Assembly: GCA_017634675.1 (NCBI GenBank) | Contig: JAGBMX010000137.1 | Span: 58,118-122,117, forward strand | Direction: 5' to 3' | DNA from: Selenomonadaceae bacterium | Lineage (GTDB): Bacteria; Bacillota; Negativicutes; Selenomonadales; Selenomonadaceae | DNA length: 64,000 bases | In this document: piece after piece, positions 6,608 through 21,370 of the stretch | Layout of the letters: every line of letters starts with the position of its first letter | Numbering within the stretch: the first letter of the stretch is position 1 | Translations under genes and position numbers: made by a program | The notes under the pieces: generated by a model | Told to the model about the DNA's origin: nothing | The model's database searches: none | The model's input: the letters and a program-made list of their open reading frames with translations, nothing else

Positions 6608-6608
6608 A

Positions 6609-6827
6609 ATGAGAGAGAAAATGATAGGTTTAATCGAAAAAACTTTAAATTTAGCCCATGGCGTTATCAATGAAGATACTAAAATTGAAGAAGTACCGGG
6701 GTGGGATTCTTTGGCCCATGTTTTGATTATCGGGGCCATTGAGTCGGATCTAGGCATTTCGATTCCATTAGACGAAGCTGTTGACATTGCTTCGGTCGGA
6801 GAATTATTTGAAAAAGCGGGGGTATAA
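6609..6827 (+). CDS. acyl carrier protein
   Basis: 72 aa with a GWDSLAHV phosphopantetheine-attachment-type motif. GGAGG RBS lies 6 nt upstream of ATG 6609, and the gene starts 2 nt after the FkbH stop. Confidence 0.8.
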   Translation: MREKMIGLIEKTLNLAHGVINEDTKIEEVPGWDSLAHVLIIGAIESDLGISIPLDEAVDIASVGELFEKAGV

Positions 6828-6829
6828 TA

Positions 6830-7804
6830 ATGGCTGCAACGCTTCGACTGATTACAAAAGATGATTTGGAAAGGATTATGAACTGGCGAATGTCCGAAAG
6901 GGTCACAAAATATATGAACACCAATCCTAAGCTGACTCTTGAAGGGCAGGAAAAATGGTTTGACTCTCTTGAAGGAAACGATAAAGTCAGGAACTGGATA
7001 ATTGAAGTAAACGGTGCGCCCGCCGGTTTGATCAATCTTGCGGATATTGATTGGGAAAAAGGAACTACGTCATGGGGGTATTATATAGGGGAGAATGATA
7101 AGCGTTCTTTAAAGTTGGCTGTATCCCTTGAAATGAGTTTATATGATTATTGTTTCGACGTTTTGGGATTTAACGAAGTACACAACGAAGTTTTTAAATT
7201 GAACGAAGGAGTATGGAAATTACACATAGCTTGCGGTTGCAAAGTGGTAAAAGAAGTTGTCGGCGAGGTGGAAAAAGAAGGAGTCGCTTACGACATAGTG
7301 CATCTTTCCATGGAACGCAACGAGTGGTTTAAAATTAGAGAAAAAAAGAAATATGAGAAGATAAATTTTGATGTGTTTGAAGGTATAATGGGGGGGGTAA
7401 CGGTACACCACATAGGCGTAGCAGTAGCGGACATAAAAAAATCAGTGGAAAGTTTTAAAAATTTCGGATGGGTTTGCGACGGAGAAATAATAAAAGATTC
7501 GTCTCGCAGCGTAAATCTTGCATTTTTAAAGAGGCGTAATTCAAACGAGATTTTGGAACTCGTATCTCCGATTAACGAACAGAGTCCGGTATTTGATATG
7601 CTTAATGCCAACAAAAATGTGGCGTTGCCCTATCATATTTGTTATGAAGTAAAGGATATAGATAAAACTGTGGATACTTTGAAATCCCGTAACTATATTC
7701 TTGTGGAAAAACCTAAACCGGCAATCGCTTTTCAACACAGACAAGTTGCTTTCTTGTTAAATCGCGATTCCGGTTTGTTGGAACTTTTGGAGGAAAGAAA
7801 ATAA
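6830..7804 (+). CDS. GNAT N-acetyltransferase fused to a VOC/glyoxalase (methylmalonyl-CoA-epimerase-like) domain
   Basis: The N-terminal half has RimJ/L-like GNAT features. The C-terminal half has VHHIGVAVADIKKSVESFKNFGW and ICYEV, typical of VOC/epimerase folds. An in-frame G8 tract (7390-7397) sits at the domain junction. Confidence 0.65.
   Translation: MAATLRLITKDDLERIMNWRMSERVTKYMNTNPKLTLEGQEKWFDSLEGNDKVRNWIIEVNGAPAGLINLADIDWEKGTTSWGYYIGENDKRSLKLAVSLEMSLYDYCFDVLGFNEVHNEVFKLNEGVWKLHIACGCKVVKEVVGEVEKEGVAYDIVHLSMERNEWFKIREKKKYEKINFDVFEGIMGGVTVHHIGVAVADIKKSVESFKNFGWVCDGEIIKDSSRSVNLAFLKRRNSNEILELVSPINEQSPVFDMLNANKNVALPYHICYEVKDIDKTVDTLKSRNYILVEKPKPAIAFQHRQVAFLLNRDSGLLELLEERK
7390..7397 (+). 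repeat. poly-G tract, G8 (in frame, at the GNAT/VOC junction)
   Basis: Counted directly from the sequence. Confidence 0.95.
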
Positions 7805-7810: not shown

Positions 7811-7853
7811 GGCTGTGAAGAAACTGAAAAACAGTTTCCTCACAGCCTTTTTA
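7811..7853. terminator. bidirectional hairpin terminator between convergent genes
   Basis: GGCTGTGAAGAAACTG / CAGTTTCCTCACAGCC forms a 16-bp stem with 1 mismatch, with an A-run before it and a T-run after it. Confidence 0.8.
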
Positions 7854-8303
7854 TGCGTTTTGTAACGTCTTTAAGCTTACAAATTCGTTTGCTTTTTGAA
7901 ATTTACTGCTTCCGTTTTGACTGCGGTAATTTAGAGTGTCCACATAGGAGCGGATACTGTCTGCTCCTTTTTTCATGCCGCCGGAGCCGTCGGAAAAAAT
8001 CTGCTTCGTGACACTTGAAAACGTCCCGTTGCCCATTTTCAGCACATCACTTGTAGTGCGACTTTTTGAGGATAACTTTTCGGTAAAATGCGTTCCGTCG
8101 CGATATATCCGAGCATTACCCCTGGCAAACCTGCTGTTGCCGATTTTAGTTTCGTTGCCGAAATTGGAAACATCCGTAAACGAATTATCCTGTTTGGAGA
8201 TGGTTGCGGTCATGGATTGACCGTTTTGTACAATCTCTCGATTTGTGCGTTGAAACAGGCTGCTGCCCCAATTTACCGCACCGAGCATCCCGGTAGAAGA
8301 CAT
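7851..8303 (-). CDS. hypothetical S/T/N/G-rich 150-aa protein
   Basis: Intact ORF, last gene of a minus-strand gene string, followed by a strong hairpin terminator. I recognise no motif. Confidence 0.45.
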   Translation of the reverse strand: MSSTGMLGAVNWGSSLFQRTNREIVQNGQSMTATISKQDNSFTDVSNFGNETKIGNSRFARGNARIYRDGTHFTEKLSSKSRTTSDVLKMGNGTFSSVTKQIFSDGSGGMKKGADSIRSYVDTLNYRSQNGSSKFQKANEFVSLKTLQNA

Positions 8304-8379
8304 AAAGCCTCACACCTTCCATGGAAAACCTTCTACACACTCTCATAATAGCATAATTTCAAAAAAAAATCCAGATTTT

Positions 8380-9039
8380 TTAATCAATAGTCAAAATTTT
8401 ATTTTTCAGCACATATACTAAAGCCTGTGTGCGGTCGGAAACATTTAATTTCCTGAAGATATTTGTGAGGTGATTTTTTACGGTTTTTTCGCTGACGCAG
8501 AGACTGTCGGCTATTTCTTGATTGCTTAAACCTTGGGTTATACAGCTTAACACGTCCATCTCCCGAAGGGTAAGACCGTTTGGACGGTGCCTTTTGTATA
8601 AGAGGCGAGCTTTTTCTATAATGTGTTCTTCCTTGCCGAAGAGTCTTTTGGCTATTTTAGGGTAAACAAACGCATTGCCTTTGTTTACTGCGTGAATTGC
8701 GCGAACAAGAGCCTCCGGCTCTACGTCTTTTAAAATATACCCAAGCGCGCCGTGTTTTAAGATTTCGAGAATATAGTTATCTCCATCGTGAATCGTAAGA
8801 GCTATAATTTTTGTCGGGATTTTTTTGCTCCCCAATTCTTTAGCTACCTCAAGCCCGTTTTTTTCAGGCATATTGATGTCCAAAAGCAGGATATCCGGGG
8901 AGAGTTCAAGGGTTTTTTTGATTGTTTCTTCACCATCTCCGGCTTCACCCACCACTTTTAAATCGTCTTCGAAGGAGAGCACGCGACGGATTCCCTCGCG
9001 AATAAGTGCGTGATCGTCCGCTATTAATATTGAAATCAT
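8380..9039 (-). CDS. NarL/FixJ-family response regulator (REC + LuxR HTH)
   Basis: MISILIADDHALIREG...LLLDINMP (receiver domain), then LTLREMDVLSCITQGLSNQEIADSLCVSEKTVKNHLTNIFRKL (LuxR HTH). ATG 9039 has a GGAG RBS; the ORF track extends to 9066. Confidence 0.9.
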   Translation of the reverse strand: MISILIADDHALIREGIRRVLSFEDDLKVVGEAGDGEETIKKTLELSPDILLLDINMPEKNGLEVAKELGSKKIPTKIIALTIHDGDNYILEILKHGALGYILKDVEPEALVRAIHAVNKGNAFVYPKIAKRLFGKEEHIIEKARLLYKRHRPNGLTLREMDVLSCITQGLSNQEIADSLCVSEKTVKNHLTNIFRKLNVSDRTQALVYVLKNKILTID

Positions 9040-9049
9040 ATCGTCACTC

Positions 9050-9793
9050 CTATATGCGTACTTCAAAACGACCGCCTTCCTTGGGAGGCTCTTGTTTTGG
9101 CGATATACTTGCGCTTTCTTTGGATTTTTTTTGTATCTGGGCTTGATAATCTCTTATTGCTTTTTTTTGAGGAACAGCAGATATATTTGAAGAAGGCATT
9201 TCAGCCGGTTCAGCCGCAAGGGAAGATAAATCTCTTTTGGAGAACCCTTGTGTATCCGATTGTTCCCTTATGAGAAATTTCTTTGCGAGGTAAACCAAAA
9301 GCGCCAATACGGCGGCAATCGTAAACCCCCAATACAGCGCGCTGTGCCCGCTATCGGAATTATGCAACCTAAAAGGAGGGGATGTTGTCGCCGCTTGCTG
9401 AGTTTCACCGCTATGCTCGTCCGGGAAAGTTTCTTTTACATTCACTCGATTTTCATTTCTGATATCTGACGCTTGAATTTGATTATTTTGTGGTTCGGCT
9501 GGGGTTTCTCTCGTATTTTTAGTGTTTTGAGACGGCTTTTCAGTTGAATTTTTGTTATTGTTTTCACCTGCCCGTTGACTCTCCTCGGGAGTTGACGTTG
9601 TAGTTTTAGAAAGAGGCCCCGAACCGTGAGCCACGGCATCCTTGGCTTTTTGTTCGTTTATGCTGTCGGTTGAAGTCGGACCGTAACTTTTAGGGCGCGG
9701 CATATCGGTTACGCTGCCACCGCCTTCAAGCACTACCCGCGGCGGCGTGGGAGGGGTAGGCGGCGTAGGAGGAGTAGGGAAGTTAAGCGCCAT
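9050..9793 (-). CDS. proline/threonine-rich, largely disordered single-pass membrane protein
   Basis: N-terminal PTPPTPPTPPTPP repeat and one hydrophobic helix (ALYWGFTIAAVLALLVYLA). The start overlaps the upstream stop (TAATG). Confidence 0.5.
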   Translation of the reverse strand: MALNFPTPPTPPTPPTPPRVVLEGGGSVTDMPRPKSYGPTSTDSINEQKAKDAVAHGSGPLSKTTTSTPEESQRAGENNNKNSTEKPSQNTKNTRETPAEPQNNQIQASDIRNENRVNVKETFPDEHSGETQQAATTSPPFRLHNSDSGHSALYWGFTIAAVLALLVYLAKKFLIREQSDTQGFSKRDLSSLAAEPAEMPSSNISAVPQKKAIRDYQAQIQKKSKESASISPKQEPPKEGGRFEVRI

Positions 9794-10758
9794 TAATTTG
9801 CATCTCCGAAAAGCAAGTAAGAAGTTGCCAAGCTATAGATACCTTCGCCGTAATCTTCGCGAATATCCGGACGTATCAAAAGATTCGGCAAAAATTTTAT
9901 AGATACTTCCTTAGAGGCAAGTTCAATAATTTTTTGTTTATCGTTTTCTCGTAACTTTTCGTTATAAAATATAACTCCGTGTGGATTCCAAAGCTGCGTT
10001 AAAATAACCAGGGTTTTTGCCGCATTTTCGATTGAATCACTAATGCTTAAATCGTTTCCCAAAGCTCCGGCAAAACCGTCGCGCCCTTTGTAGAGTTTGC
10101 CCTTTAGAAGTATTCCGCATCTTGGACTTTCCGATTTTTCCCAAGACACGCCTATAAGAGTTTCGCTTTCCGCAACTTTTCCGAAGAGTTTACCTGCGCC
10201 GTGTGTCGCCGCATGAATATCTCTAAAAAGGGTTACAGGTCGATTTATCTTAGAGAATAAAAGACTCGAAAGTGCTTCTCCTTTTAAAGCAGGATAGACG
10301 TTAGTTTCAAAGTTGCCCGCTATCTCCTCGCCGTCAAGTCCTAAGAGTATCGTTGTTATTTGAGGATATTTTTCAATGAAAGATTCAAATTCTTTTTGTA
10401 AAAATTCCGGTGTGACGTTATCGGTAATTGCCTCGCTACCCGTTATAACTTCGCCGAATAAATTTAATACAAACGAGGTAAGTTTAAAATTATTTCCTTC
10501 GCTCCAAATATAAGCTCCTAAAGCCAGTCGTTTTTCCGCAACAAAACGGTATTGTCTGGCAGGTCTTCCGCCGATTGTTACCGTATCTGTTATAAGTTCG
10601 GCGTCTCCACGTTTGATAAGAGCATCTAAATGAGCGTTGATTGTGACGACGCTAAGTCCGGTTTCTTTTGCAAGATTTGGTTTTGAAGTTACTTTAAGAC
10701 GCCTTAAGGCGTCAAGGGTAATTTCGAGATTTTTCGCCCGCATATCTTTCTTATCCAT
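9793..10758 (-). CDS. ROK-family-like transcriptional regulator (wHTH + sugar-kinase-like fold)
   Basis: The N-terminal wHTH-like segment (LAKETGLSVVTINAHLDALIKRG) is followed by an actin-like ATPase-type region. The assignment is by general resemblance only. Confidence 0.55.
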   Translation of the reverse strand: MDKKDMRAKNLEITLDALRRLKVTSKPNLAKETGLSVVTINAHLDALIKRGDAELITDTVTIGGRPARQYRFVAEKRLALGAYIWSEGNNFKLTSFVLNLFGEVITGSEAITDNVTPEFLQKEFESFIEKYPQITTILLGLDGEEIAGNFETNVYPALKGEALSSLLFSKINRPVTLFRDIHAATHGAGKLFGKVAESETLIGVSWEKSESPRCGILLKGKLYKGRDGFAGALGNDLSISDSIENAAKTLVILTQLWNPHGVIFYNEKLRENDKQKIIELASKEVSIKFLPNLLIRPDIREDYGEGIYSLATSYLLFGDAN

Positions 10759-10898
10759 ACAGCATCCCCTTTAGGGTAGAAATTACTTTATAAAGCTATG
10801 TTCTGATTGTACAAGATGAACCCAAAATTGTCAAGCTAAGCTAGAGAATTCACGCTAATTAGGTTAAAATTAATTTTATTTTGGATGGAGGAATTTTT

Positions 10899-11507
10899 AT
10901 GAAAAAGGGAACTACTTATGGTTACATTCGAGTGTCAACCGTTATGCAACATGATGACCGTCAAAGAGTCGCTATGAGGGAATTTGGCGTTGAATCTAAA
11001 TTTATATTTGCTGATAAACAAAGCGGCAAAGATTTTAATCGTCCGGCATATAAAAAACTAATGAAAAAACTCTCCGCCGGAGATGTTTTGGTGATTCAAA
11101 GCTTAGATAGGCTTGGTCGGGATTATAACGATATTTTGGAGCAATGGCGTATTATTACCAAGAAAAAACGAGCTTACATCGTAGTCTTAAATATGCCTAT
11201 TTTGGATACGAGAGTAAAAATAGCCGGTGATCTCACAGGTACTCTTATCTCTGATCTTGTACTCCAACTTCTTTCTTATGTGGCGCAGATGGAACGGGAG
11301 ATGAATCTTAGGCGCACGCTGGAGGGAATAGCGGCGGCGAAGGCGAGAGGTGTAAAGTTTGGACGAAGACCCATGGAACGCCCGAAAATTTATGAGACGA
11401 TTCGCCTGCGTTGGGAAGCCGGCGAATTATCGGCGCGTGAAGCTGCAAAACACATAGGAATAGCGCCTTCTACTTTTAGACGATGGGTGAAAACAGGCGA
11501 GCGATAA
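10899..11507 (+). CDS. serine recombinase (resolvase/invertase family)
   Basis: YGYIRVSTVMQHDDRQ (catalytic Ser), LVIQSLDRLGRDY, and a C-terminal HTH (AAKHIGIAPSTFRRW). GGAGG RBS precedes ATG 10899. Confidence 0.9.
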   Translation: MKKGTTYGYIRVSTVMQHDDRQRVAMREFGVESKFIFADKQSGKDFNRPAYKKLMKKLSAGDVLVIQSLDRLGRDYNDILEQWRIITKKKRAYIVVLNMPILDTRVKIAGDLTGTLISDLVLQLLSYVAQMEREMNLRRTLEGIAAAKARGVKFGRRPMERPKIYETIRLRWEAGELSAREAAKHIGIAPSTFRRWVKTGER

Positions 11508-11519
11508 ACCATGGTTTAT
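11504..11519. repeat. perfect 16-bp palindrome ATAAACCATGGTTTAT overlapping the recombinase stop codon
   Basis: Read directly. A second copy of GCGATAAACCATGG lies at 11595-11608. Confidence 0.8.
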
Positions 11520-11652
11520 GACCCGGCAATAAATAAAAAAAAATGGCAGGAAATTTGCGTTTTTTAGCGAAAATAATTTGTATAAAGTAGGTGGGCGATA
11601 AACCATGGGTTGCCGCCCACCCTGAATCGTAGAGTCTAAAGGAGCGGTTAAC

Positions 11653-12606
11653 ATGGCAAAAGAATTGCGTATGGAAAGAAAAGTTGTATTTACAGAGCGT
11701 CCTCCATTTCCTGAAAATATGCTTGTAGAACTTACTAACAAATGTAACCATCAATGTATTTTCTGTCACTATCGTCTTATGAGCCGTAAAAAAGCGGATT
11801 GTAATCGAGAATTTACCTTTGATATCATAAAACAAGCCTATGACAACGGTACGCGCGAGATTGGGTTTTATATGATAGGCGAGCCTTTTTTGAAGCGGGA
11901 TTTGGAGGAATACATTGCTTACGCCCATAATCTTGGTTTTACATACATTTATCTAACCACCAACGGCGCTTTGGCTACCTTAGAGCGCACCGTTAAATGT
12001 ATTGAGGCGGGATTAAACAGTATCAAATTCTCCATAAACGCCGCCACTACTGAGCATTACATACAAATACACGGGCACGACGATTATGAAACTGTAAAAA
12101 CAAATGTTCGCAATCTTAGCGAATATGTAAGAAAAAATAATATAGATCTTTCAATGTTTATCACTTTCGTAAAAACTAATATTACGTTAGATGATTTTGA
12201 TTTGTTGCTGGCGGATTTTTCATCCTTTGTTGACAAAATATACGAATGCGACTGCAACTCTCAAGGAACGCCTATAATCGAATTGATCAATAACGGTATT
12301 GTAAATCCTTTAATATACTTAAAAGAAAACCAAGAGCTATGCCAGATGGTTTTTAATCGCTTACATATAACTAGCGAAGGTTATTTAAACGCCTGTTGCG
12401 CAGATGCTGAAGGGCTTTTGAGCGCCGTTGATTTGCATGAAGTTTCACTAAAGGAAGCTTGGCATTCGGATATTATGGTTAATTTGCGTCGGCAATTTCT
12501 TAACAATACACTTAGTAAAGATGTTCTTTGCTATAACTGCTTACATAAAGAGCAACATAAGGTAAAGCCCTTAAACGAAGCGCTTTGGTCATCGAATGGA
12601 CGCTAA
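11653..12606 (+). CDS. radical SAM enzyme with C-terminal SPASM/twitch-like Cys cluster
   Basis: CNHQCIFC (CX3CX2C) lies near the N-terminus. The C-terminal Cys-rich region contains CDCNSQG, GYLNACCADAEG and CYNCLH. Confidence 0.85.
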   Translation: MAKELRMERKVVFTERPPFPENMLVELTNKCNHQCIFCHYRLMSRKKADCNREFTFDIIKQAYDNGTREIGFYMIGEPFLKRDLEEYIAYAHNLGFTYIYLTTNGALATLERTVKCIEAGLNSIKFSINAATTEHYIQIHGHDDYETVKTNVRNLSEYVRKNNIDLSMFITFVKTNITLDDFDLLLADFSSFVDKIYECDCNSQGTPIIELINNGIVNPLIYLKENQELCQMVFNRLHITSEGYLNACCADAEGLLSAVDLHEVSLKEAWHSDIMVNLRRQFLNNTLSKDVLCYNCLHKEQHKVKPLNEALWSSNGR

Positions 12607-12615
12607 TTATAAAAA

Positions 12616-14634
12616 ATGAGTCGTAATGTAGGAGGTTTACTGAAATTGAAAGAGTATAATATTGAAATACCGAAGTTTACAGCGCTTGAGAAAAAGCTTC
12701 AACAAGAGTCTGACTTTTTTAACTATATGAAGCTCTTGACAGAGGTTTTAACCCAGTATGTACTTATAATTACCGTTAGCGACACGCCTTCAGGTCCTAT
12801 GTTTACATCTGCTCATGCAAACGCTATGATGAGCGCACTTGGACTTGAAATGAATATGATGAATGCTTTTCGTATGCCTTATGTAGCAGTTATAGATCAT
12901 GGTAAGCTTGCGTATGAAAGCACGTCAAAAGGACGTGAGGAGCCTGTAATTGTGAATGGCAATTTAGGAGAACATACTCTTAGTATATATAGCGGAGGCC
13001 TTGACTGTAATCTTAATTTGGGGTTTGGATGTAATGCGCTAATCACCATAGATGGTACACATTATTTTGGAGACTTGGGATATAATTTTTTTCTATATAA
13101 CGTTAAAGATGACTATATTGCTGATATGTGCGTCTACGGAGCTTGGTATAATAGTGATGAACGTACGTTACACAGACCAACTTCCATTATAAAAGAGTTT
13201 ATCGCAAATTTAAATACCGGGGGGGGTATGCTTTGCTTTATGCATACACCTGTATTTACACCTTTATCAATGCGTTCAGAGCAGGAGAATCTTATTATTA
13301 ATTCAAAGTTTGGTTATAACATGATGTCTGATAAAAATGTTTTACAAAATATATGGAATAATAAAATTTTTCACTTCGTAAATGACTTTGACACCGAAGA
13401 AGATTTGCTCGAAGCTATAACGCCTCCAGACGCTTATGAGGATATTGATGGAATAATGAAGTTCAAAGACCATAAATCAAATGCGGTAAATACAAAAAAT
13501 GGAATACGGGTAACGACGGATCAACCGCAAAATCCCCAAAGAGCCATATATATTTTTGGTCCTTGCACAACTTTTGGAATAGGCGCAAAAGATAGTTATA
13601 CGATAGCGTCGTGTTTGCAGAGAAAATTAAACGAGTATTTGCCGGAGGAAAAATTCATAGTATATAATTATGGATTTTATATAAATGGCATAGGTGACGC
13701 TCAAGAACGACTCATAGCGATAATGAAATCATTGCCGATACAAAAAAACGATATTATTTTATTTGCGCAAAACGCTCCTTTTTACGGTATCCCATTTTGT
13801 GACTTAACCGAAAAATCAAAACGACCACATAATTACGGCGATATTTTTTTGGATAGCGGACATTTTACAGCTAACGGTAATCGTATGATAGCCGACGGTA
13901 TTTTTGATTTTTTAAAAAAATATGATTTTTTCAAAGATACGAAAATGAACATTACCAATGCTGGAGATTTAGGCGAAATAACTATTTTTGAAAATCACGA
14001 GAACGAACTTTTGACGATGTATAAATGTAAACTTAAAAATTTTTTCAAAACAAATATCTCTCCAAAAGTCGGTGCAATTGTTATGAACGCAAACCCTTTT
14101 ACATACGGACATCGCGCCTTGGTGGACGAAGCTTTGAAAAAATGCGATTACTTGATAGTTTTTGTCGTTGAAGAGGATAAATCCGATATACCTTTTAAAG
14201 ATAGGATTATGCTTGTAAGAGAAAATCTAAAAACGGAGTCCCGAGTTTTTATAATGCCTAGCGGAGAATTTATAATTTCCGGCAAGACTTTTAGCGAATA
14301 TTTCAGAAAAGAGAGTTTACAAGAGCAAAAAATAGATACTTCAAAAGATGTAATTCTTTTCGCAAAAGAAATTGCGCCATGCCTTAACATAAGCATTCGT
14401 TTTGCCGGCGAAGAGCCTACTGACAAAATTACGAGGCAATATAATGAGGATATGGCAAAAATTTTGCCTATGTATGGCATTGAGTTTATGGAGATAAAGC
14501 GAAAGATTACCGATGAAGGGGAAGTAATAAGCGCATCTACGGTAAGGAAACTTGTTAGAGCGTGCGAGTATGAGAAGTTAGAAACACTTGTTCCTCCCGT
14601 TACATTTGAGTATTTAAAGAGAAAATATTTGTAG
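12616..14634 (+). CDS. large multidomain protein: unknown N-terminal region, SGNH-like middle region, C-terminal CitC-type (citrate-lyase-ligase-like) adenylyltransferase domain
   Basis: The C-terminus has GAIVMNANPFTYGHRALVDEALKKCDYLIVFVVEEDKSDIPFKDR (NPFTxGH nucleotidyltransferase motif as in CitC). The middle has IYIFGPCTTFG ... DSGHFTANGNRMIA (SGNH block I/V-like, with Cys in place of Ser). An in-frame G8 sits at 13219-13226. An alternative TTG start at 12646 has an AGGAGG RBS. Confidence 0.7.
   Translation: MSRNVGGLLKLKEYNIEIPKFTALEKKLQQESDFFNYMKLLTEVLTQYVLIITVSDTPSGPMFTSAHANAMMSALGLEMNMMNAFRMPYVAVIDHGKLAYESTSKGREEPVIVNGNLGEHTLSIYSGGLDCNLNLGFGCNALITIDGTHYFGDLGYNFFLYNVKDDYIADMCVYGAWYNSDERTLHRPTSIIKEFIANLNTGGGMLCFMHTPVFTPLSMRSEQENLIINSKFGYNMMSDKNVLQNIWNNKIFHFVNDFDTEEDLLEAITPPDAYEDIDGIMKFKDHKSNAVNTKNGIRVTTDQPQNPQRAIYIFGPCTTFGIGAKDSYTIASCLQRKLNEYLPEEKFIVYNYGFYINGIGDAQERLIAIMKSLPIQKNDIILFAQNAPFYGIPFCDLTEKSKRPHNYGDIFLDSGHFTANGNRMIADGIFDFLKKYDFFKDTKMNITNAGDLGEITIFENHENELLTMYKCKLKNFFKTNISPKVGAIVMNANPFTYGHRALVDEALKKCDYLIVFVVEEDKSDIPFKDRIMLVRENLKTESRVFIMPSGEFIISGKTFSEYFRKESLQEQKIDTSKDVILFAKEIAPCLNISIRFAGEEPTDKITRQYNEDMAKILPMYGIEFMEIKRKITDEGEVISASTVRKLVRACEYEKLETLVPPVTFEYLKRKYL
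13219..13226 (+). repeat. poly-G tract, G8 (in frame, in the 672-aa gene)
   Basis: Counted directly from the sequence. Confidence 0.95.
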
Positions 14635-14664: not shown

Positions 14665-14891
14665 CCTGTCTGTAGACTTATTGTCGTTGTTTCCAATTTA
14701 AGAGGATACTCCCCCCGCCCCCCCTCTAGGAGGGGGGCTTTTATGTGGTTCATTCTTAGATAAGTGCCACAAAAGCAACAGTCAGAGAGCCTCCCTCTCA
14801 GAGGAAGGTGCCCGAAGAGCGGAGGGGTCGACCATGAAGAGCGCTATTTTTATTTTTGTACTACATGTGAATAGTAACAATACTTATTGTA
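14665..14891 (+). repeat. MITE-like element, family H, copy A (approximate ends)
   Basis: Shares the core CAGAGAGCCTCCC...GGTGCCCGAAG.GC.GAGGGGT.GACCATGAAGAGC and GTGAATAGTAAC with copies at 17949-18212 and, inverted, 44730-44965. Confidence 0.65.
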
Positions 14892-15002: not shown

Positions 15003-15080
15003 CTTCATTTTTCGACAGTCTGAACAATACTTATTGTAATTTCATTGTTTTGTCGATAATCTGCATTTTTTCAAAAATTA

Positions 15081-15108
15081 TGTAACACTTTTCATTTTCA
15101 GGCGTATA
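15081..15108 (+). promoter_or_regulatory. ECF-type promoter of P1: TGTAAC-N16-CGTATA
   Basis: TGTAAC at 15081-15086, a 16-nt spacer, and CGTATAAAG starting at 15103. It is part of a roughly 100-bp module repeated at P2 and P9. Confidence 0.6.
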
Positions 15109-15167
15109 AAGATACAGAAAGAAAAAAATAAAAGCCTTTAGGCAAACAATTTGAAAGGATGATTGTA

Positions 15168-15500
15168 ATGAAACTTAATAAGGAAAACAAACTAAGCAAT
15201 GATGAACTTGAACAGGTAGCCGGAGGTCATTGTGGGAATAGTTATAAAGATATGCAGCGAGCGTACGACAGGCAAATGCCGGGCTTTGAAAACATGGATC
15301 CCTCAAATATAGCTACGATGGTATATTGCCTCAAAAACTGGGATAAAGTGGTGGGAGAGCTAAAAAATATGTTCGCCCAATACGGAATCGAAATGACTTA
15401 CAAAAGCGACCCCTTAGAAGACAATCTTTATATGTACCAAGGCAGGCGGATTACCGACGGTCAAGCGTGGCAAATCCTCGACAGCCAAAGAAACCCCTGA
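15168..15500 (+). CDS. GG-leader cargo protein P1 (subfamily A)
   Basis: MKLNKENKLSNDELEQVAGG leader, then a 90-aa hydrophilic domain (HCGNSYKDM...YMYQGRRITDGQAWQILDSQRNP). RBS GAAAGGA and an ECF-type promoter lie upstream. Confidence 0.8.
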   Translation: MKLNKENKLSNDELEQVAGGHCGNSYKDMQRAYDRQMPGFENMDPSNIATMVYCLKNWDKVVGELKNMFAQYGIEMTYKSDPLEDNLYMYQGRRITDGQAWQILDSQRNP

Positions 15501-15542
15501 TTCCCATGAGTATCACGCTCATTAAAATTTTTTCAAAAATTA

Positions 15543-15570
15543 TGTAACACTTTTCATTTTCAATCGTATA
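15543..15570 (+). promoter_or_regulatory. ECF-type promoter of P2: TGTAAC-N16-CGTATA
   Basis: Same motif and spacing as for P1. Confidence 0.6.
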
Positions 15571-15629
15571 AAGATACAGAAAGAAAAAAATAAAAGCCTT
15601 TAGGCAAACAATTTGAAAGGATGATTGTA

Positions 15630-15974
15630 ATGAAACTTAATAAGGAAAACAAACTAAGCAGTGAGGAACTTGAGCAGGTAGTCGGAGGAAACGCTGGCGA
15701 AACTGCGCTTGAATCGGAATTTTTGCGAGACCTTGGATATAATATTCAAGAAATGGGTTTCTTTCACATGGAGCTTAATTGGGAAGAAGGGTCGGCTAAA
15801 GTCAGGGATGGATGGGCGCATTTCGGCGTAGATTGTCATACCGCCAGGTCGGTAAAAAACGAATATTACATCGACGGCAAGAGAGTTTCCAGGCGCCAGG
15901 CATTTCAGCATGCGGCATATAAAGCCGGAAAACCGTGGATCTATGATGATGATTATTCTAAATGCGCACTCTGA
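15630..15974 (+). CDS. GG-leader cargo protein P2 (subfamily B, divergent)
   Basis: MKLNKENKLSSEELEQVVGG leader. The 5' module is near-identical to P1. The core has ESEFLRDLGYN...GWAHFGVD...NEYYIDGKRVSRRQAFQHA. Confidence 0.8.
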   Translation: MKLNKENKLSSEELEQVVGGNAGETALESEFLRDLGYNIQEMGFFHMELNWEEGSAKVRDGWAHFGVDCHTARSVKNEYYIDGKRVSRRQAFQHAAYKAGKPWIYDDDYSKCAL

Positions 15975-16035
15975 TATAAAATGATAGGTTTACCCCCGAA
16001 ACATACGAAAAGAGATTTTTTCAAAAATTATGTAA

Positions 16036-16124
16036 GGCAACCTCTAAAAATTGCCTAATTTCCTTGATGTCTCCCCGCCCCTTCGGGGCGGGGAGACATC
16101 AAAAATAAGTTTTTAGAAGTGCCC
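16036..16124 (+). repeat. repeat element, family K, copy 1 (inserted in the P3 promoter module)
   Basis: Aligns along its length with 21923-22010. It contains the hairpin GATGTCTCCCCGCCCC-TTCG-GGGCGGGGAGACATC. Confidence 0.7.
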
Positions 16125-16151
16125 GTAACAATTTCCGTTTTCAGTCGTATA
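16124..16151 (+). promoter_or_regulatory. ECF-type promoter of P3-P4: CGTAAC-N16-CGTATA
   Basis: Same spacing. The -35 element abuts an inserted repeat element (16036-16124). Confidence 0.55.
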
Positions 16152-16203
16152 AAAATACAGAAATAAAACGTCTGAGGGCGAACGACACGAAAGGATGATT
16201 GTA

Positions 16204-16560
16204 ATGCAACTCGATAAAGAACACAAACTGAACGATGAGGAACTTGAGCAAGTATCGGGAGGATGCGACTATGAAACATCCGATGACAGCAAATTTTTGA
16301 ATGTTTTGCTCAGTGGAACCGATTATCATCGTTGCGATCGCTACGGCAAATTTAAAATTTTTTGGGGGAGCAGCAAACGTTACGGTCCATGTGAAGATAT
16401 CGAGAATTCTTGGAGGGTGCTTGGCATTGAGATGGTCCCTTACGCCTCTGATCGTAATGAATACTGGATGAACGGCAAACTACTTACGAGGGGCGAGGCT
16501 TGGGCCCATGCGGAGAAATTAGTGGGCAAGCACTTGGAACGCGCAGATTGGGACTGGTAA
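16204..16560 (+). CDS. GG-leader cargo protein P3 (subfamily B)
   Basis: MQLDKEHKLNDEELEQVSGG leader. The core has DDSKFLNVLL...RYG...WRVLGIEM...NEYWMNGKLLTRGEAWAHAEKLVGKHLERADWDW. Confidence 0.8.
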   Translation: MQLDKEHKLNDEELEQVSGGCDYETSDDSKFLNVLLSGTDYHRCDRYGKFKIFWGSSKRYGPCEDIENSWRVLGIEMVPYASDRNEYWMNGKLLTRGEAWAHAEKLVGKHLERADWDW

Positions 16561-16604
16561 CGTAAAAAGAAAAAAAGAACGTCTAAGAAAGGATAGTGAT
16601 TTAA

Positions 16605-16937
16605 ATGCCGAATTTTGAATATGCAAAACTCACCGATGATGAACTTGAGCAGGTAGCCGGAGGTCATTGCGGGGATAGTTATAAAGATATGCGTCAAGCG
16701 TACGAGAGGAAAATGCCGGGCTTTGAAAAACTGGATCCCGAGAGCCTGGATACGATGGTGTATTGTTTAAAAAACTGGGATAAAGTGGTGGGAGATCTAA
16801 AAAATATGTTCGCCCAATACGGAATCGAAATGACTTACAAAAGCGACCCATTAGAAGACAATCTCTATATGTACCAAGGCAGGCGCATTACTAACGGTCA
16901 AGCGTGGCAAATCCTCGACAGCCAAAGAAACCCCTGA
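16605..16937 (+). CDS. GG-leader cargo protein P4 (subfamily A; close paralogue of P1)
   Basis: MPNFEYAKLTDDELEQVAGG leader. By hand count the core differs from P1 at about 13 of 90 positions. It starts 44 nt after P3, so it is probably co-transcribed. Confidence 0.8.
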   Translation: MPNFEYAKLTDDELEQVAGGHCGDSYKDMRQAYERKMPGFEKLDPESLDTMVYCLKNWDKVVGDLKNMFAQYGIEMTYKSDPLEDNLYMYQGRRITNGQAWQILDSQRNP

Positions 16938-16998
16938 TTTCCATGAGTATGGTAGGTTTATCACTCAAACATACGAAAGAAAATTTTTAAAAAAAACA

Positions 16999-17026
16999 TG
17001 CAACATTTTTTGTTTTTTCTGAATAT
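16999..17026 (+). promoter_or_regulatory. ECF-type promoter of P5-P6: TGCAAC-N16-GAATAT
   Basis: Variant of the same motif, followed by the conserved AAAGCCTTTAGGCAA 5'-UTR box. Confidence 0.5.
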
Positions 17027-17086
17027 AAAGTACAGCAAGAATGAACGAAAGCCTTTAGGCAATGAGAAATCAAGGAGATGTTGAAA

Positions 17087-17461
17087 ATGGCAAAACGCGA
17101 AGAAATTCTCAAAAAAATTAATCTTGAACTTAATAAGTTGAGCGATGAAGAACTTGAACAAGTGGCGGGCGGCAATGCGGAGCAAACGTCAAATGACAGT
17201 CGCTTTCTTAACAGCTTGAACGGCTCGACAGACCGTTACGGCCCGGAACGTATCGCGTGGTCGTTTGGAATTCATAATGCGGAAATTGAAAAAGGTTGGG
17301 CGACAGTCGGAATAAAAGCAACAGTCTATTTCGCTTGCGGCGGTTTCGGCAAAAGCAACAGATATTATCTTAACGGCCGAGAAATCTCGCAGGAAGAGGC
17401 GCGTCAGCACGCAATGGAAGTCACTCAGCACTATATGACGGAAAAAGATTGGAAATGGTAA
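17087..17461 (+). CDS. GG-leader cargo protein P5 (subfamily B)
   Basis: MAKREEILKKINLELNKLSDEELEQVAGG leader. The core has NDSRFLNSLNGSTDRYG...GWATVGIK...NRYYLNGREISQEEARQHAMEVTQHYMTEKDWKW. AAGGAG RBS lies 10 nt upstream; the ORF track starts at 17078. Confidence 0.8.
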   Translation: MAKREEILKKINLELNKLSDEELEQVAGGNAEQTSNDSRFLNSLNGSTDRYGPERIAWSFGIHNAEIEKGWATVGIKATVYFACGGFGKSNRYYLNGREISQEEARQHAMEVTQHYMTEKDWKW

Positions 17462-17500
17462 AAAATTTTGCAACTATGTGAAATAGAGGAGATGTTTAAA

Positions 17501-17839
17501 ATGGTACAGAATATAGAGATGAACAAATTAAACGATAGCCAGCTTGAAAATGTTGCGGGCGGTTGCAGCTATGAGTCGTTTGAATTATTCCACGCTTTAA
17601 GAGGCAACAATGCCTTTCAGAAAGATTATCCCGGTCTTTTTGCTCCTCCGGTGAACCAGGAGGTTAAGATAGACGATAACATTATGGAGAAAGCGCTCTT
17701 GGAAAAGATGGGAATTAAGGCGCAGATTAATTGGGGGCCTGACGAATGGTTCGATTGCAATAAGTATGTGTCTGCAGACACCGGCAAGAGATTGTATCAT
17801 GATGATGTTATAAAAGCCATAAAGAATTACAAAGGTTAA
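17501..17839 (+). CDS. GG-leader cargo protein P6 (divergent)
   Basis: MVQNIEMNKLNDSQLENVAGG leader followed by a divergent 92-aa core. It starts 39 nt after P5 and is followed by a strong terminator. Confidence 0.7.
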   Translation: MVQNIEMNKLNDSQLENVAGGCSYESFELFHALRGNNAFQKDYPGLFAPPVNQEVKIDDNIMEKALLEKMGIKAQINWGPDEWFDCNKYVSADTGKRLYHDDVIKAIKNYKG

Positions 17840-19343: not shown

Positions 19344-20009
19344 ATGAACATAAAGATTATTACAAGCGGTAAAAAACGGACGGATCCTTGGGGACAGCTG
19401 GCGGTAAAAGCCATTCATGATGAACAGGCATTTACGGAGCTTTACGAATATTTTTTCCCAAGGGTCTATCAATATCTGCTGAAAAAAACACAGGACAGCC
19501 ATCTCGCAGACGAAATGGTGGAGAGCGCCTTTGTCCGTATGTATCAGCACTTATCTCAGTACGTCCCGGAGAAAGGCGCCTTTTCCACATGGCTGTTCCG
19601 CATTGCCCAAAACGTATTGAATAAGCATTACGGCAGCAAGGCAGTGACTATGCATACGGCTTGGGAGGAAACTTTCGATCCCGCCGCGCCGGAGAAAGAA
19701 ACTCCGGAGGAGCAAGCACTTACCAAAGAACGCAGCAGGGAGTTGCGCGACGCCATAATGAAATTGCCACCTCGCCAGCGTCAGATATTGGAGATGACCT
19801 ACTGGCTTGATATGAAGTCTGCGGACATAGCCGAACAGATGGGCATGGCTCCCAGTTCCGTCAGAGTAGCCTTAAAGCAGGCAAGGGACGCGCTGCGGAA
19901 ACTTTTTGCGAAAAAAATTGCAGTCTATGGGGGAGGCGATAAAAAACGCGACTTGCGTAATGGTGGCGCACAGACTAAATACCATAAAAAAAGCGGATAT
20001 TATTTATGA
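19344..20009 (+). CDS. ECF-type sigma-70 family RNA polymerase sigma factor
   Basis: Region 2: FTELYEYFFPRVYQYLLKKTQDSHLADEMVESAFVRMYQHL...FSTWLFRIAQNV. Region 4: LPPRQRQILEMTYWLDMKSADIAEQMGMAPSSVRVALKQARDALRKL. Confidence 0.85.
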   Translation: MNIKIITSGKKRTDPWGQLAVKAIHDEQAFTELYEYFFPRVYQYLLKKTQDSHLADEMVESAFVRMYQHLSQYVPEKGAFSTWLFRIAQNVLNKHYGSKAVTMHTAWEETFDPAAPEKETPEEQALTKERSRELRDAIMKLPPRQRQILEMTYWLDMKSADIAEQMGMAPSSVRVALKQARDALRKLFAKKIAVYGGGDKKRDLRNGGAQTKYHKKSGYYL

Positions 20010-20118
20010 AATCAAAGACGGAGCAGTCATTCGGTACGATAGCTTTGAAGAATTTGAAAAAACTAGGAATATAGCATGATATACCTTGTAAAAAAAAAGA
20101 AAAAATTTAAAAAAAAAT

Positions 20119-20146
20119 CATAACAGTTTGCTGCCTTCGAGGATAT
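20119..20146 (+). promoter_or_regulatory. weaker copy of the array promoter ahead of ORF 20172-P7: CATAAC-N16-GGATAT(AAAG)
   Basis: Motif and spacing similar to the other copies. Confidence 0.35.
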
Positions 20147-20171
20147 AAAGAATGAAGAGAGGTGATAGAGA

Positions 20172-20435
20172 ATGAGGAACGAAACGTTAGAACAGGAATT
20201 GAGCGCGTTCGACTTTTCCCTCTGTCATCCCGTTCGTACGCACTTACTTAATAAGCTGCTCACTATCCACAGGGCAGACAACGTTGCTACGGAGCAGCCT
20301 AGTCGTAAATGGACATTCGCCCGTCTGGACGATAAGGAACTGAACTGGGTTGTAGCTGCGGGCAGCGTCGGAAATTTGCAAAACTCTGAAGAATGGAAAG
20401 AAAGGGTGACGGATCATGTCATTAAAAGAAAGTAA
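20172..20435 (+). CDS. 87-aa hypothetical protein with an internal leader-like motif (LDDKELNWVVAAG)
   Basis: RBS AGAGGTGA. The 3' end overlaps the P7 start by 20 nt. A weaker copy of the array promoter lies upstream. Confidence 0.5.
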   Translation: MRNETLEQELSAFDFSLCHPVRTHLLNKLLTIHRADNVATEQPSRKWTFARLDDKELNWVVAAGSVGNLQNSEEWKERVTDHVIKRK

Positions 20436-20754: not shown

Positions 20755-20767
20755 TGCTCAGATTATA

Positions 20768-20815
20768 AAAAGGGTCCTGTTGATGCCGAAAAGCATCAGC
20801 AGGACCCTTTTTTTC
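20768..20815 (+). terminator. rho-independent terminator after P7
   Basis: AAGGGTCCTGTTGATGC ... GCATCAGCAGGACCCTT followed by TTTTTT. Confidence 0.85.
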
Positions 20816-20879
20816 GGGAATTGGGTAATTTGTTTGCCGCCAAAGTAATATTCTCTGTCATTGCCATCTCTGCCAAATA

Positions 20880-20935: not shown

Positions 20936-20945
20936 TATCGCCTTA

Positions 20946-21299: not shown

Positions 21300-21370
21300 T
21301 TTAATAGCTCCTTTTTTACTTTTGATTTCACATAAGCGCTTAGCGCGAAACACCGTTTCGCAGGTCGTTG

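What the first reader, a model, noticed from the sequence alone, without database searches (positions are those of the whole stretch)
11653..14634. Radical SAM/SPASM enzyme paired with a 672-aa protein combining an unknown domain, an SGNH-like domain with Cys in the nucleophile position, and a CitC-type adenylyltransferase domain
Seen directly: a CX3CX2C radical SAM with a C-terminal Cys cluster is followed 9 nt later by a large ORF. The last 180 aa or so of that ORF carry the NPFTYGH...FVVEEDKSDIPFKDR pattern that I know from citrate-lyase ligase (CitC), which adenylates acetate and loads it on a carrier thiol. The middle has SGNH block I/V-like motifs, but reads GPCTT where GDSxx is expected. 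The first 300 aa are unrecognisable to me.

The pair lies directly upstream of the GG-leader array, which suggests a RiPP-type maturase pair. However, it also carries a G8 tract like the glycan-type locus at 3-8 kb, and an ACP is encoded at 6609. The pair could therefore instead acylate a carrier protein or surface polymer.

The combination of domains is unusual either way.
Basis: partly seen in the sequence, partly recalled or inferred. Interest (0 to 1): 0.65.

Follow-up and report, generated by a model that had tools for sequence, protein, structure and literature searches.

The report
Phase-variable sugar-tailoring enzyme pair
A rumen/gut Selenomonadaceae bacterium carries a two-gene operon (a radical SAM enzyme plus an uncharacterised three-domain enzyme that probably activates a free acid with ATP and hangs it on a surface sugar) that is switched on and off by a flippable DNA segment and a slippery G-run; it is not a peptide-maturation pair.

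Summary
The 11653-12606 ORF is a radical SAM enzyme with a partial SPASM (twitch-like) domain. The 12616-14634 ORF has three parts: an ILEI-like N-domain, an SGNH-like domain with Cys at the nucleophile position, and a CitC-type HIGH-nucleotidyltransferase domain.

The RiPP interpretation is not supported. None of 88 loci encoding relatives carries a GG-leader gene. The rSAM has no room for a recognition domain. A strong terminator separates the pair from the GG array, and the GG genes have their own repeated upstream elements.

Both genes belong to glycan tailoring. The closest rSAM relatives lie in nonulosonic-acid (NeuB/CMP-synthetase) loci, and relatives of the fusion lie among glycosyltransferases. 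In two species SGNH-CitC and an rSAM of this family form a single polypeptide.

The operon has two phase switches:
- A 78-bp segment (11520-11597), next to an Mpi-like serine invertase gene, occurs in both orientations in public assemblies.
- The G8 tract sits at a homologous site that reads G6 to G11 in relatives, and many relatives are truncated there.

Best model (inferred): acyl-AMP formation, then an acyl-Cys317 intermediate, then acyl transfer to a nonulosonic-acid-type sugar, with a radical tailoring step alongside. The SGNH-Cys/CitC family (716 cluster representatives) turned up in none of my literature searches.

The parts
10881..11507 (+). Serine recombinase (resolvase/invertase, Mpi-like), directly upstream of the switch.
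   Evidence: Pfam Resolvase 1.4e-29 plus an HTH. The best NCBIfam model is the master DNA invertase Mpi family, 1e-12 over the full length but below its cut-off.
11496..11524 (.). Left inverted repeat of the switch (core CCATGGTTTAT, 11509-11519).
   Evidence: Inverted-repeat pair I10. The inversion breakpoint lies at 11519/11520.
11520..11597 (.). 78-bp invertible segment. The only promoter-like motifs lie on the strand that points at the rSAM gene in the window's orientation.
   Evidence: The segment is reverse-complemented in L094/L095, the same species at 98.2% identity, with identical flanks. Run X4 carries the inverted form. Runs X1 and X3 show opposite-strand joints, and their contigs break at the repeats. 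The promoter assignment is weak.
11593..11621 (.). Right inverted repeat of the switch (core ATAAACCATGG, 11598-11608).
11653..12606 (+). Radical SAM enzyme with one twitch-like (partial SPASM) auxiliary cluster domain and no RRE.
   Evidence: Close relatives sit in nonulosonic-acid loci.
12616..14634 (+). Three-domain enzyme (672-aa ORF; the likely start is TTG 12646, giving 662 aa).
12673..13485 (+). N-terminal beta-rich domain (residues ~20-290), distantly ILEI/FAM3-like. Proposed role: acceptor (glycan) binding.
   Evidence: AF2 pLDDT is mostly 75-95. ILEI Pfam hits occur in 16 of 20 relatives. There is no PDB fold match.
13219..13226 (+). G8 homopolymer (codons 202-204, in a low-confidence loop). 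G8 keeps the frame; G7, G9 and G10 stop translation at about aa 228-237.
   Evidence: The homologous tract reads G6, G7, G9, G11 and G11 in relatives, including otherwise identical alleles. Eleven of the 34 nearest cluster representatives start at residues 199-236.
13522..13935 (+). SGNH/GDSL-like domain (residues 303-440), with Cys317 (codon 13564-13566) in the nucleophile position and the D413-x-x-H416 motif.
13981..14622 (+). CitC-type HIGH-nucleotidyltransferase (adenylate-forming) domain (residues 456-669), with the NPFTYGH and ISAS.VR motifs.
14717..14738 (+). Intrinsic terminator (7-8 bp G+C stem followed by a T-run) that closes the operon before the GG array.

Best explanation
The pair is a phase-variable, two-gene glycan-tailoring operon of a Selenomonadaceae bacterium. 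It most likely decorates a nonulosonic-acid-type (pseudaminic/legionaminic-like) sugar of a surface glycan.

Proposed mechanism; every chemical step is inferred:
1. The CitC-like domain uses ATP to turn a free short carboxylic acid into an acyl-AMP.
2. The acyl group passes to Cys317 of the SGNH-like domain as a covalent acyl-enzyme. The thiol plays the part that the carrier thiol plays for CitC.
3. The His416/Asp413 pair catalyses transfer to a hydroxyl or amino group of the sugar. The sugar may still be CMP-activated and may be held by the lectin-like N-domain.
4. The rSAM/twitch enzyme performs an oxygen-independent radical tailoring step on the same sugar or acyl group. Candidates are oxidation, epimerisation or dehydration, as BtrN, DesII and AprD4 do on other sugars.

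Expression (the sequence features are shown; the regulatory effect is inferred) is gated twice. An Mpi-like serine invertase flips a 78-bp segment just upstream of the operon. Slippage of the G8 tract truncates the three-domain enzyme after about 230 residues.
For: Domains and catalytic residues:
- In 80 relatives the nucleophile position is Cys in 58 and Ser in 16. His, Asp and Asn of the SGNH set and the HxGH/ISxxxR set of the CitC domain are near-invariant.

Glycan context:
- The Selenomonas sp. AB3002 orthologue follows NeuB, PtmE-like and CMP-synthetase genes directly and precedes a GT52 gene.
- Tandem paralogues lie among glycosyltransferases in another locus.
- Among the +/-2 neighbours in 60 species, GT2 (18) and Radical_SAM (11) are the commonest families.
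- The rSAM's 54-61% relatives all lie in NeuB/CTP_transf_3/DegT loci.
- The window itself has FkbH, an ACP, a PseH-like GNAT and O-methyltransferase genes 4 kb upstream.

Link between the two genes:
- They form an operon in the window.
- Single ORFs of the form CBS-SGNH-CitC-rSAM occur in L071 and L050. Their rSAM part matches the window rSAM family HMM over its full length (6e-15 and 6e-18).
- L067 has a same-family rSAM (1e-45) plus two more rSAM genes around its SGNH-CitC gene.

Switches:
- The inversion is seen, and the invertase gene.
- The tract polymorphism is seen.

Precedents from established knowledge:
- CitC acetylates a thiol via acetyl-AMP.
- SGNH-like PatB, AlgJ/AlgX and CASD1 O-acetylate carbohydrates through acyl-enzyme intermediates. 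PatB and AlgJ/AlgX appear in the hit list.
Against: - No biochemical datum exists. The acid, the acceptor and the rSAM reaction are all unknown.
- The window holds no nonulosonic-acid core genes (NeuB or CMP-synthetase).
- Several close relatives stand alone, away from glycan genes. With my tblastn panel only 29 of 64 long loci showed glycan genes.
- The close rSAM relatives examined lack an SGNH-CitC neighbour.
- The N-domain's lectin-like nature rests on weak HMM hits only.
- The HIGH domain could transfer a nucleotide rather than form an acyl-adenylate.
- No consensus promoter was found in the invertible segment.
- Tract and orientation variation were seen in assemblies and contigs, not in raw reads.
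Confidence: 0.55

Rival explanations
1. RiPP maturase pair. The rSAM/SPASM enzyme and the three-domain enzyme modify the downstream GG-leader proteins (15159-17839 and 20416-21700).
For: The pair lies about 500 nt upstream of the array. The GG leaders give weak hits to rSAM-modified RiPP leader models such as TIGR04149 (E about 0.01-0.03). The rSAM matches SPASM.
Against: - None of 88 loci with relatives of the fusion holds a GG-leader homologue.
- The rSAM relatives examined lie in nonulosonic-acid loci.
- There is no RRE; the CX3CX2C starts at residue 31.
- A terminator lies between the pair and the array.
- Each GG gene has its own conserved upstream element, and an ECF sigma gene lies in the array.
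- The GG cores are about 90 aa and Cys-poor.
Confidence: 0.03
2. Carrier-protein loader. The CitC-like domain loads a carboxylate onto the phosphopantetheine thiol of the ACP at 6585-6827 (or another carrier), as CitC loads citrate-lyase ACP. The SGNH-like domain edits or transfers the load.
For: CitC's natural acceptor is a carrier thiol (established knowledge). An ACP with FkbH and a PseH-like GNAT lies 5 kb upstream. One relative's locus (L042) also has FkbH and an ACP.
Against: - FkbH loads its ACP by itself (established knowledge).
- Only 1 of 88 loci has such a set.
- The ACP locus is separated from the pair by four minus-strand genes and the invertase gene.
- The conserved internal Cys/Ser nucleophile makes an external thiol unnecessary.
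Confidence: 0.07
3. Nucleotidyl or phospho-alcohol transfer. The HIGH domain makes or transfers a CMP/AMP-linked group (for example a glycerol-phosphate-type substituent), and the SGNH-like domain acts as esterase or phosphotransferase. No acyl-adenylate is formed.
For: The domain also matches CTP_transf_like and PPAT structures. Some relatives neighbour Glyphos_transf, LicD and IspD genes. An rSAM relative is fused to a cytidylyltransferase in a phosphonate locus.
Against: - The match to Citrate_ly_lig (191 bits) is far stronger than to generic cytidylyltransferases (26 bits).
- TIGR00124 aligns across the whole ligase half.
- A Cys/Ser-His-Asp set fits acyl transfer better.
Confidence: 0.15
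4. De-acylation and recycling. The SGNH-like domain removes an O-acyl group from a sugar (an esterase like NanS), and the CitC-like domain re-activates the released acid.
For: Most SGNH enzymes are hydrolases, as in the hit list.
Against: - A Cys nucleophile fused to an adenylate-forming domain points to the acyl flowing towards the enzyme.
- Phase-variable control and biosynthetic neighbours fit addition of a decoration.
Confidence: 0.05

Closest known systems
CitC, [citrate (pro-3S)-lyase] ligase (TIGR00124 / PF08218)
   Same: The C-terminal HIGH-nucleotidyltransferase-type ligase half is the same, with NPFTxGH and ISAS.VR conserved. The expected chemistry is also the same: acid plus ATP gives acyl-AMP, which passes to a thiol.
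   Different: There is no GNAT-like N-half. The score is below the equivalog cut-off. No citrate lyase genes are nearby. The acceptor thiol is probably an internal Cys of a fused SGNH-like domain. The context is glycan tailoring.
SGNH-like carbohydrate O-acyltransferases (PatB/Ape-type, AlgJ/AlgX, OatA C-domain, CASD1)
   Same: SGNH-like fold with a nucleophile-His-Asp set, and a covalent acyl-enzyme passed to a sugar hydroxyl. CASD1 acts on CMP-sialic acid, a nonulosonic acid.
   Different: Those enzymes use Ser and take the acyl group from acetyl-CoA or a membrane partner. Here the nucleophile is mostly Cys, and the donor would be made in cis by an adenylating domain. The protein appears cytoplasmic, though no signal-peptide or membrane-segment prediction was run.
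Dlt D-alanylation pathway (DltA adenylation, DltC thiol carrier, DltD SGNH-like transferase)
   Same: The logic is the same: adenylate an acid, park it on a thiol, and transfer it to a cell-surface polymer with an SGNH-like enzyme.
   Different: Dlt uses an ANL adenylase, a separate carrier protein and an MBOAT. Here the whole path would sit in one polypeptide built from unrelated adenylation machinery.
Twitch/SPASM radical SAM sugar-tailoring enzymes (BtrN, DesII, AprD4)
   Same: A small rSAM with one auxiliary cluster and no peptide-recognition domain, encoded in sugar pathways.
   Different: No significant specific similarity was shown. The generic NCBIfam hits are all far below their cut-offs. 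The substrate and reaction are unknown.
Contingency loci of Campylobacter jejuni flagellin glycosylation (e.g. Cj1295, PMC3068675) and Mpi-controlled invertible polysaccharide promoters of Bacteroides fragilis
   Same: Poly-G tracts inside nonulosonic-acid tailoring genes, and a serine invertase gene next to a short invertible element in front of glycan genes.
   Different: Both switch types act on one operon in a Negativicutes bacterium. The inverted-repeat sequence (ATAAACCATGG) and the genes under control are different.

Membership tests
CitC, [citrate (pro-3S)-lyase] ligase | Citrate_ly_lig C-terminal ligase domain with the HxGH-type and ISxxxR motifs. | tested here: met
   PF08218 1.3e-56 over residues 485-667. 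The motifs are invariant in 80 relatives.
CitC, [citrate (pro-3S)-lyase] ligase | Full-length equivalog score, including the GNAT-like N-half. | tested here: not met
   TIGR00124 scores 181.7 bits against a cut-off of 262.1. Only model positions 115-328 align.
CitC, [citrate (pro-3S)-lyase] ligase | Encoded with citrate lyase subunit genes (citDEF). | tested here: not met
   None of the annotated neighbours in the window is a citrate lyase subunit. The neighbours of relatives are glycan genes.
SGNH/GDSL hydrolase-acyltransferase superfamily | Profile similarity to solved SGNH enzymes, with blocks I, III and V aligned. | tested here: met
   1yzf 3.9e-6, 9otv 1.3e-5, plus PatB and AlgJ/AlgX. GpC aligns on GDS and D..H on block V. 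Pfam GDSL hits are weak, in 4 of 20 relatives.
SGNH/GDSL hydrolase-acyltransferase superfamily | Serine nucleophile in block I. | tested here: not met
   Cys317 in this protein. Across the family the position is Cys in 58, Ser in 16 and other in 6 of 80. It is therefore a Cys variant of the fold.
Radical SAM superfamily, SPASM/twitch subgroup | CX3CX2C cluster motif. | tested here: met
   C31, C35 and C38 are kept in 100% of 106 relatives. Pfam Radical_SAM 9e-16.
Radical SAM superfamily, SPASM/twitch subgroup | Full seven-Cys SPASM motif for two auxiliary clusters. | tested here: not met
   Only five Cys are conserved (230, 248, 249, 293, 296), with CX2C instead of CX2CX5CX3C. The twitch model NF033640 matches residues 227-303.
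rSAM-SPASM RiPP maturation system | Co-occurrence with precursor peptide genes across genomes. | tested here: not met
   No GG-leader homologue in any of 88 loci. The rSAM relatives examined lie in nonulosonic-acid loci.
rSAM-SPASM RiPP maturation system | RiPP recognition element (PqqD-like) in or beside the maturase. | tested here: not met
   Only 30 residues precede the CX3CX2C. No PqqD-type hit was found in either protein.
Invertible DNA switch (inverton) driven by a serine invertase | A segment flanked by inverted repeats, found in both orientations. | tested here: met
   Inverted repeats I10. L094/L095 and run X4 carry the inverted form. Runs X1 and X3 show opposite-strand joints at 11519/11520 and 11597/11598.
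Invertible DNA switch (inverton) driven by a serine invertase | A cognate recombinase encoded nearby. | tested here: met
   A resolvase-family gene ends inside the left repeat. That it catalyses this particular inversion cannot be tested here.
Invertible DNA switch (inverton) driven by a serine invertase | A promoter (or other expression signal) inside the segment. | tested here: inconclusive
   Only weak sigma-70-like motifs, all on the strand facing the operon in the window orientation. The single RNA run was uninformative.
Homopolymeric-tract contingency gene | Tract length varies between otherwise identical alleles and sets the reading frame. | tested here: met
   L006 and L007 have G11 and L008 has G9, with no other mismatch in 2 kb. 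Truncated relatives start at the tract. These are assemblies, so read-level variation within one population could not be tested with these tools.

The most novel reading that the evidence does not exclude
The three-domain protein would found a new class of self-contained glycan acyltransferases that need neither CoA nor a carrier protein. It would take free fermentation acids from the gut or rumen (acetate, propionate, lactate, hydroxy-acids), activate them with ATP on a CitC-type domain, hold them on a cysteine in an SGNH fold, and write them onto nonulosonic acids. A dedicated radical SAM partner, fused to it in some species, would perform a radical modification of sialic-acid-like sugars, for which my searches found no report. 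The whole operon would be under combined inversion and slipped-strand phase variation, giving surface antigen diversity.
Probability: 0.3. Interest if true: 0.8.

Novelty: new variant of a known kind. Interest (0 to 1): 0.62.

Why it matters
- **Open question for sialic-acid-like sugars.** Pseudaminic and legionaminic acids carry many O- and N-acyl decorations, and for many of these no transferase has been assigned (my knowledge; not checked here). A widespread enzyme family could fill part of that gap. It has 716 cluster representatives and occurs in Firmicutes, Bacteroidota, Desulfovibrionaceae, Campylobacteraceae, spirochaetes and an archaeon.
- **New route to glycan acylation.** The family would show a route that bypasses acyl-CoA.
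- **Radical SAM chemistry.** The recurrent link with radical SAM enzymes, including natural fusions, points to radical chemistry on such sugars. My full-text searches for 'radical SAM' with 'nonulosonic' found no paper.
- **Phase variation in a commensal.** The double switch shows that commensal rumen and gut Selenomonadaceae vary their surface glycans as Campylobacter and Bacteroides do. That matters for phage and host-immune interactions.
- **Annotation.** The finding is a caution against calling a RiPP cluster from adjacency of an rSAM/SPASM gene to GG-leader genes.

Tried and rejected
- **N-domain fold search.** Foldseek of the N-domain model against the PDB found nothing below E = 0.29. 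Foldseek of the whole model returned only the HIGH-nucleotidyltransferase domain.
- **N-domain sequence search.** A profile search with the N-domain returned a single extra protein, which has an ILEI domain.
- **Literature.** Searches for CitC-like domains in glycan contexts, and for radical SAM with nonulosonic acids, found nothing relevant.
- **Read-level test of tract length.** It failed because the public runs are kept as contigs only. One contig does end exactly at the tract, which is only suggestive.
- **RNA.** The one RNA run holds a single 244-nt contig inside the rSAM gene. It gives no transcription start and no orientation information.
- **Metagenome scan for the repeat.** The scan for GCGATAAACCATGGKTT gave only single, apparently chance matches in unrelated environments.
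- **Other checks.**
  - Rfam found nothing in the window.
  - tblastn with the window's rSAM found only three distant neighbours. A family HMM was needed to recognise the fused and neighbouring rSAMs.
  - A consensus promoter scan found no convincing promoter in the invertible segment.
- **Rejected readings.**
  - A genuine CitC: fails the cut-off, the N-half and the context.
  - A RiPP maturase pair.
  - A mobile-element resolvase unrelated to the pair: the inversion abuts the operon.


Full report
**What is there**

The window comes from a Selenomonadaceae bacterium of the rumen or gut. The best relatives and the runs that hold the sequence are gut and goat-gut metagenomes.

ORF 11653-12606 (317 aa) has the radical SAM motif CNHQCIFC at residues 31-38 and a C-terminal Cys-rich domain. 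Pfam gives Radical_SAM 9e-16 and SPASM 7e-7. In 106 relatives the conserved Cys are 31/35/38 plus 230, 248, 249, 293 and 296. That amounts to one twitch-like auxiliary site rather than the full SPASM motif. Only 30 residues precede the first cluster, so there is no room for a peptide-recognition (RRE) domain.

Nine nucleotides after the rSAM stop begins a 672-aa ORF (12616-14634). The true start is probably TTG 12646, behind an AGGAGG. This matches the 662-aa NCBI-annotated 99% relative and the N-termini of the homologues.

**The three domains**

*Residues 456-669.* These are a CitC-type ligase domain. PF08218 scores 1.3e-56. TIGR00124 scores 1.9e-53 but falls below its equivalog cut-off and covers only the C-terminal two thirds of the model. 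Sequence and fold searches against the PDB find only the generic HIGH-nucleotidyltransferase fold, namely PPAT, NMNAT and PanC.

*Residues about 303-440.* These are SGNH-like. A profile of this segment from 28 relatives hits solved GDSL/SGNH enzymes: 1yzf at 3.9e-6, 9otv at 1.3e-5, then PatB, AlgJ and AlgX. The family's G-x-C aligns on G-D-S, and D-x-x-H aligns on block V. In an 80-member alignment the nucleophile position is Cys in 58 and Ser in 16. H416 is kept in 76, D413 in 64 and N351 in 70. A Cys/Ser alternation at one position is what a catalytic nucleophile would show. This SGNH-Cys domain has 716 cluster representatives at E <= 1e-3 in a 1.8-billion-protein library.

*Residues about 20-290.* These fold confidently into a beta-rich domain in AlphaFold models. 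The domain has no PDB neighbour. Sixteen of 20 relatives, though not this protein itself, give weak hits to the ILEI/FAM3 family, best 1.3e-5. In wider relatives this part is replaced by CBS, FrhB/ferredoxin, epimerase or other modules. SGNH-Cys plus CitC is therefore the conserved core.

**Where the family lives**

- In Selenomonas sp. AB3002 the orthologue follows a legionaminic-type set (dehydratase, DegT, acetyl- and formyltransferase, NeuC-like, NeuB, PtmE-like, two GFO/MocA, CMP-synthetase) and precedes a GT52 sialyltransferase-family gene.
- Another contig has two tandem paralogues among glycosyltransferases, an ATP-grasp gene and a methyltransferase gene.
- In the 60 GTDB species where I could call the gene, the commonest families among the two genes on each side are GT2 (18), Radical_SAM (11), epimerases, methyltransferases, Glyphos_transf, LicD and FrhB-like.
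- Some close relatives stand alone.
- No locus of 88 holds a homologue of any GG-leader protein, and only one holds FkbH with an ACP.

For the rSAM, the three closest relatives with usable contigs (54-61% identity) all lie inside NeuB / CMP-nonulosonate synthetase / DegT loci, twice as tandem rSAM paralogues.

The window itself has, 4 kb upstream, a nonulosonic-acid tailoring set. It comprises a TylF-type and a second methyltransferase, FkbH (269 bits, above its cut-off), an ACP, and a GNAT that scores 90.4 bits on the PseH model (cut-off 93.1) and is fused to a glyoxalase-fold domain.

**Are the two genes really partners?**

Yes, on three grounds:
- They form an operon that ends at a strong terminator (14717-14738).
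- Radical SAM genes are the second most frequent neighbours of the family.
- In two species (L071, 1256 aa; L050, 1237 aa) one ORF reads CBS - SGNH-Cys - CitC - small linker domain - rSAM/SPASM.

The rSAM part of those two ORFs matches an HMM built from the window rSAM's relatives over its full length, at 6e-15 and 6e-18. L067 has a same-family rSAM (1e-45) three genes upstream of its SGNH-CitC gene and two more rSAM/SPASM genes flanking it. These sit amid DegT, formyl-, methyl- and carbamoyl-transferase and transketolase genes. The L071 locus is an exopolysaccharide cluster with pyruvyl transferase, FrhB-like, hexapeptide transferase and DUF4422 genes.

**Not a RiPP pair**

Besides the absent co-occurrence and the absent RRE, the GG genes are a separate unit. 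Each has its own conserved 34-160-nt upstream element. An ECF sigma gene lies within the array, followed by a small ORF of unknown function.

**Phase variation, switch 1**

The gene just upstream (10881-11507) is a serine recombinase. Its best NCBIfam match is the Mpi master-invertase family, 1e-12 and below the cut-off. Between this gene and the rSAM gene lie inverted repeats with cores CCATGGTTTAT and ATAAACCATGG.

Two independent assemblies of the same species (98.2% identity) have identical flanks, but the 78 bp between the repeats is reverse-complemented. In Logan contigs, run X4 carries the inverted form. Runs X1 and X3 show opposite-strand joints exactly at 11519/11520 and 11597/11598, with the assembly graph breaking at the repeats, as expected for mixed orientations.

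Related repeat copies with other flanks occur in the same samples, which suggests several switches in this genome. I could not find a consensus promoter. The only promoter-like motifs lie on the strand that faces the operon in the window's orientation, so the reading 'ON in the window' is tentative.

**Phase variation, switch 2**

The G8 tract (13219-13226) lies in a low-confidence loop of the N-domain. G8 keeps the frame, while G7, G9 and G10 stop translation near residue 230. The homologous site carries G6, G7, G9, G11 and G11 in relatives. Three contigs with a 2-kb gene identical at every other base differ only in G11, G11 and G9. Eleven of the 34 nearest cluster representatives begin at residues 199-236, that is, at or just after the tract.

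G-runs of 7 or more are enriched in the window, 12 against 3.7 expected, and cluster in the 3-13 kb region. One of them splits a methyltransferase gene (4041-4295 and 4388-4960). Another differs between the window (G8) and L094/L095 (G9) in the PseH-like gene. The pair also has a low G+C content: 35.8% against 42.7% for the window.

**Mechanism**

*Shown:*
- the domain identities and the conservation of the catalytic sets;
- the glycan and nonulosonic-acid context;
- the gene fusion;
- the two sequence switches.

*Inferred:* the CitC-like domain makes an acyl-AMP from a free acid. The acyl moves to Cys317. The SGNH-like His/Asp pair transfers it to a hydroxyl or amine of a nonulosonic-acid-type sugar, as PatB, AlgJ/AlgX and CASD1 do with acetyl. 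The logic parallels DltA-DltC-DltD, compressed into one chain. The rSAM adds an oxygen-independent radical step on the same molecule. The acid, the acceptor and the rSAM reaction are all unknown.

The main rival is that the HIGH domain transfers a nucleotide or phospho-alcohol rather than forming an acyl-adenylate.

**Novelty**

I found no paper that links CitC-like domains, or radical SAM enzymes, with nonulosonic-acid or glycan tailoring. The parts and the regulatory devices are known kinds. The architecture (SGNH with Cys plus CitC-type ligase, with an rSAM partner) and its double switch in a Negativicutes commensal are new variants.

Noticed in passing
window 3032-7804: A nonulosonic-acid tailoring locus with four G7-G9 tracts (3032, 3323, 4259, 7390). 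It comprises a TylF-type O-methyltransferase, a second methyltransferase that appears split by the G9 at 4259-4267 (ORFs 4041-4295 and 4388-4960), FkbH, an ACP, and a PseH-like GNAT fused to a glyoxalase/methylmalonyl-CoA-epimerase-fold domain. This suggests a phase-variable (O-methyl)glyceroyl decoration of a pseudaminic-type sugar. The 7390 tract is G8 here and G9 in L094/L095.
   Followed up: partly
window 15059-17839 and 20096-21745: An array of at least nine paralogous 109-127-aa proteins with an ELEQVAGG double-glycine leader. Each is preceded by a conserved upstream element (TTTTTTCAAAAATTATGTAACACTTT-like, family D7). An ECF sigma gene (19344-20009), followed by a small ORF of unknown function (20172-20435), lies in the middle. 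112-nt direct repeats at 14767 and 18094 bracket the plus-strand block. Only the leader parts match known families.
   Followed up: partly
Logan contigs of runs X1, X3, X5, X7 laid on window 11490-11621: The ~30-bp repeat sequences of the switch recur with different flanks. In one 2.3-kb contig (X5) two inverted copies lie about 95 bp apart. The genome probably has several related invertible elements, as in a master-invertase regulon.
   Followed up: partly
L071:8765-12535 and L050:8762-12475: Single ORFs of 1256 and 1237 aa that read CBS - SGNH(Cys) - CitC-like - small Rossmann-like linker - radical SAM/SPASM. These are natural fusions of the two activities encoded by the pair.
   Followed up: yes
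L011:9635-12976 and L019:8477-12118: Other family members carry C-terminal extensions. In L011 the extension resembles ATP sulfurylase by my reading of its motifs (QTRNPxHxAH, GRDHAG; no domain search was run on it). In L019 it looks like an NAD-dependent epimerase/SDR, again by eye only. The SGNH-CitC module seems to be a portable tailoring unit.
   Followed up: no
L093:7001-8482: A relative of the window's rSAM (43% identity) is fused to a cytidylyltransferase-like domain. It sits beside a PEP-mutase/cytidylyltransferase fusion, an Fe-alcohol dehydrogenase and a Glyphos_transf-like gene, which looks like a phosphonate-glycan locus.
   Followed up: no
window 7851-10758 (minus strand): Four genes lie between the glycan locus and the invertase gene. 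One is a LuxR-type response regulator (8380-9066). The other three (150, 247 and 321 aa) have no significant family match; the 321-aa protein has only a sub-threshold ROK hit.
   Followed up: no
window 600-2250: About 1.6 kb of higher G+C sequence (48.6%) with only short, mutually overlapping ORFs on both strands and no Rfam match. It could be a decayed gene or an unrecognised non-coding element.
   Followed up: no
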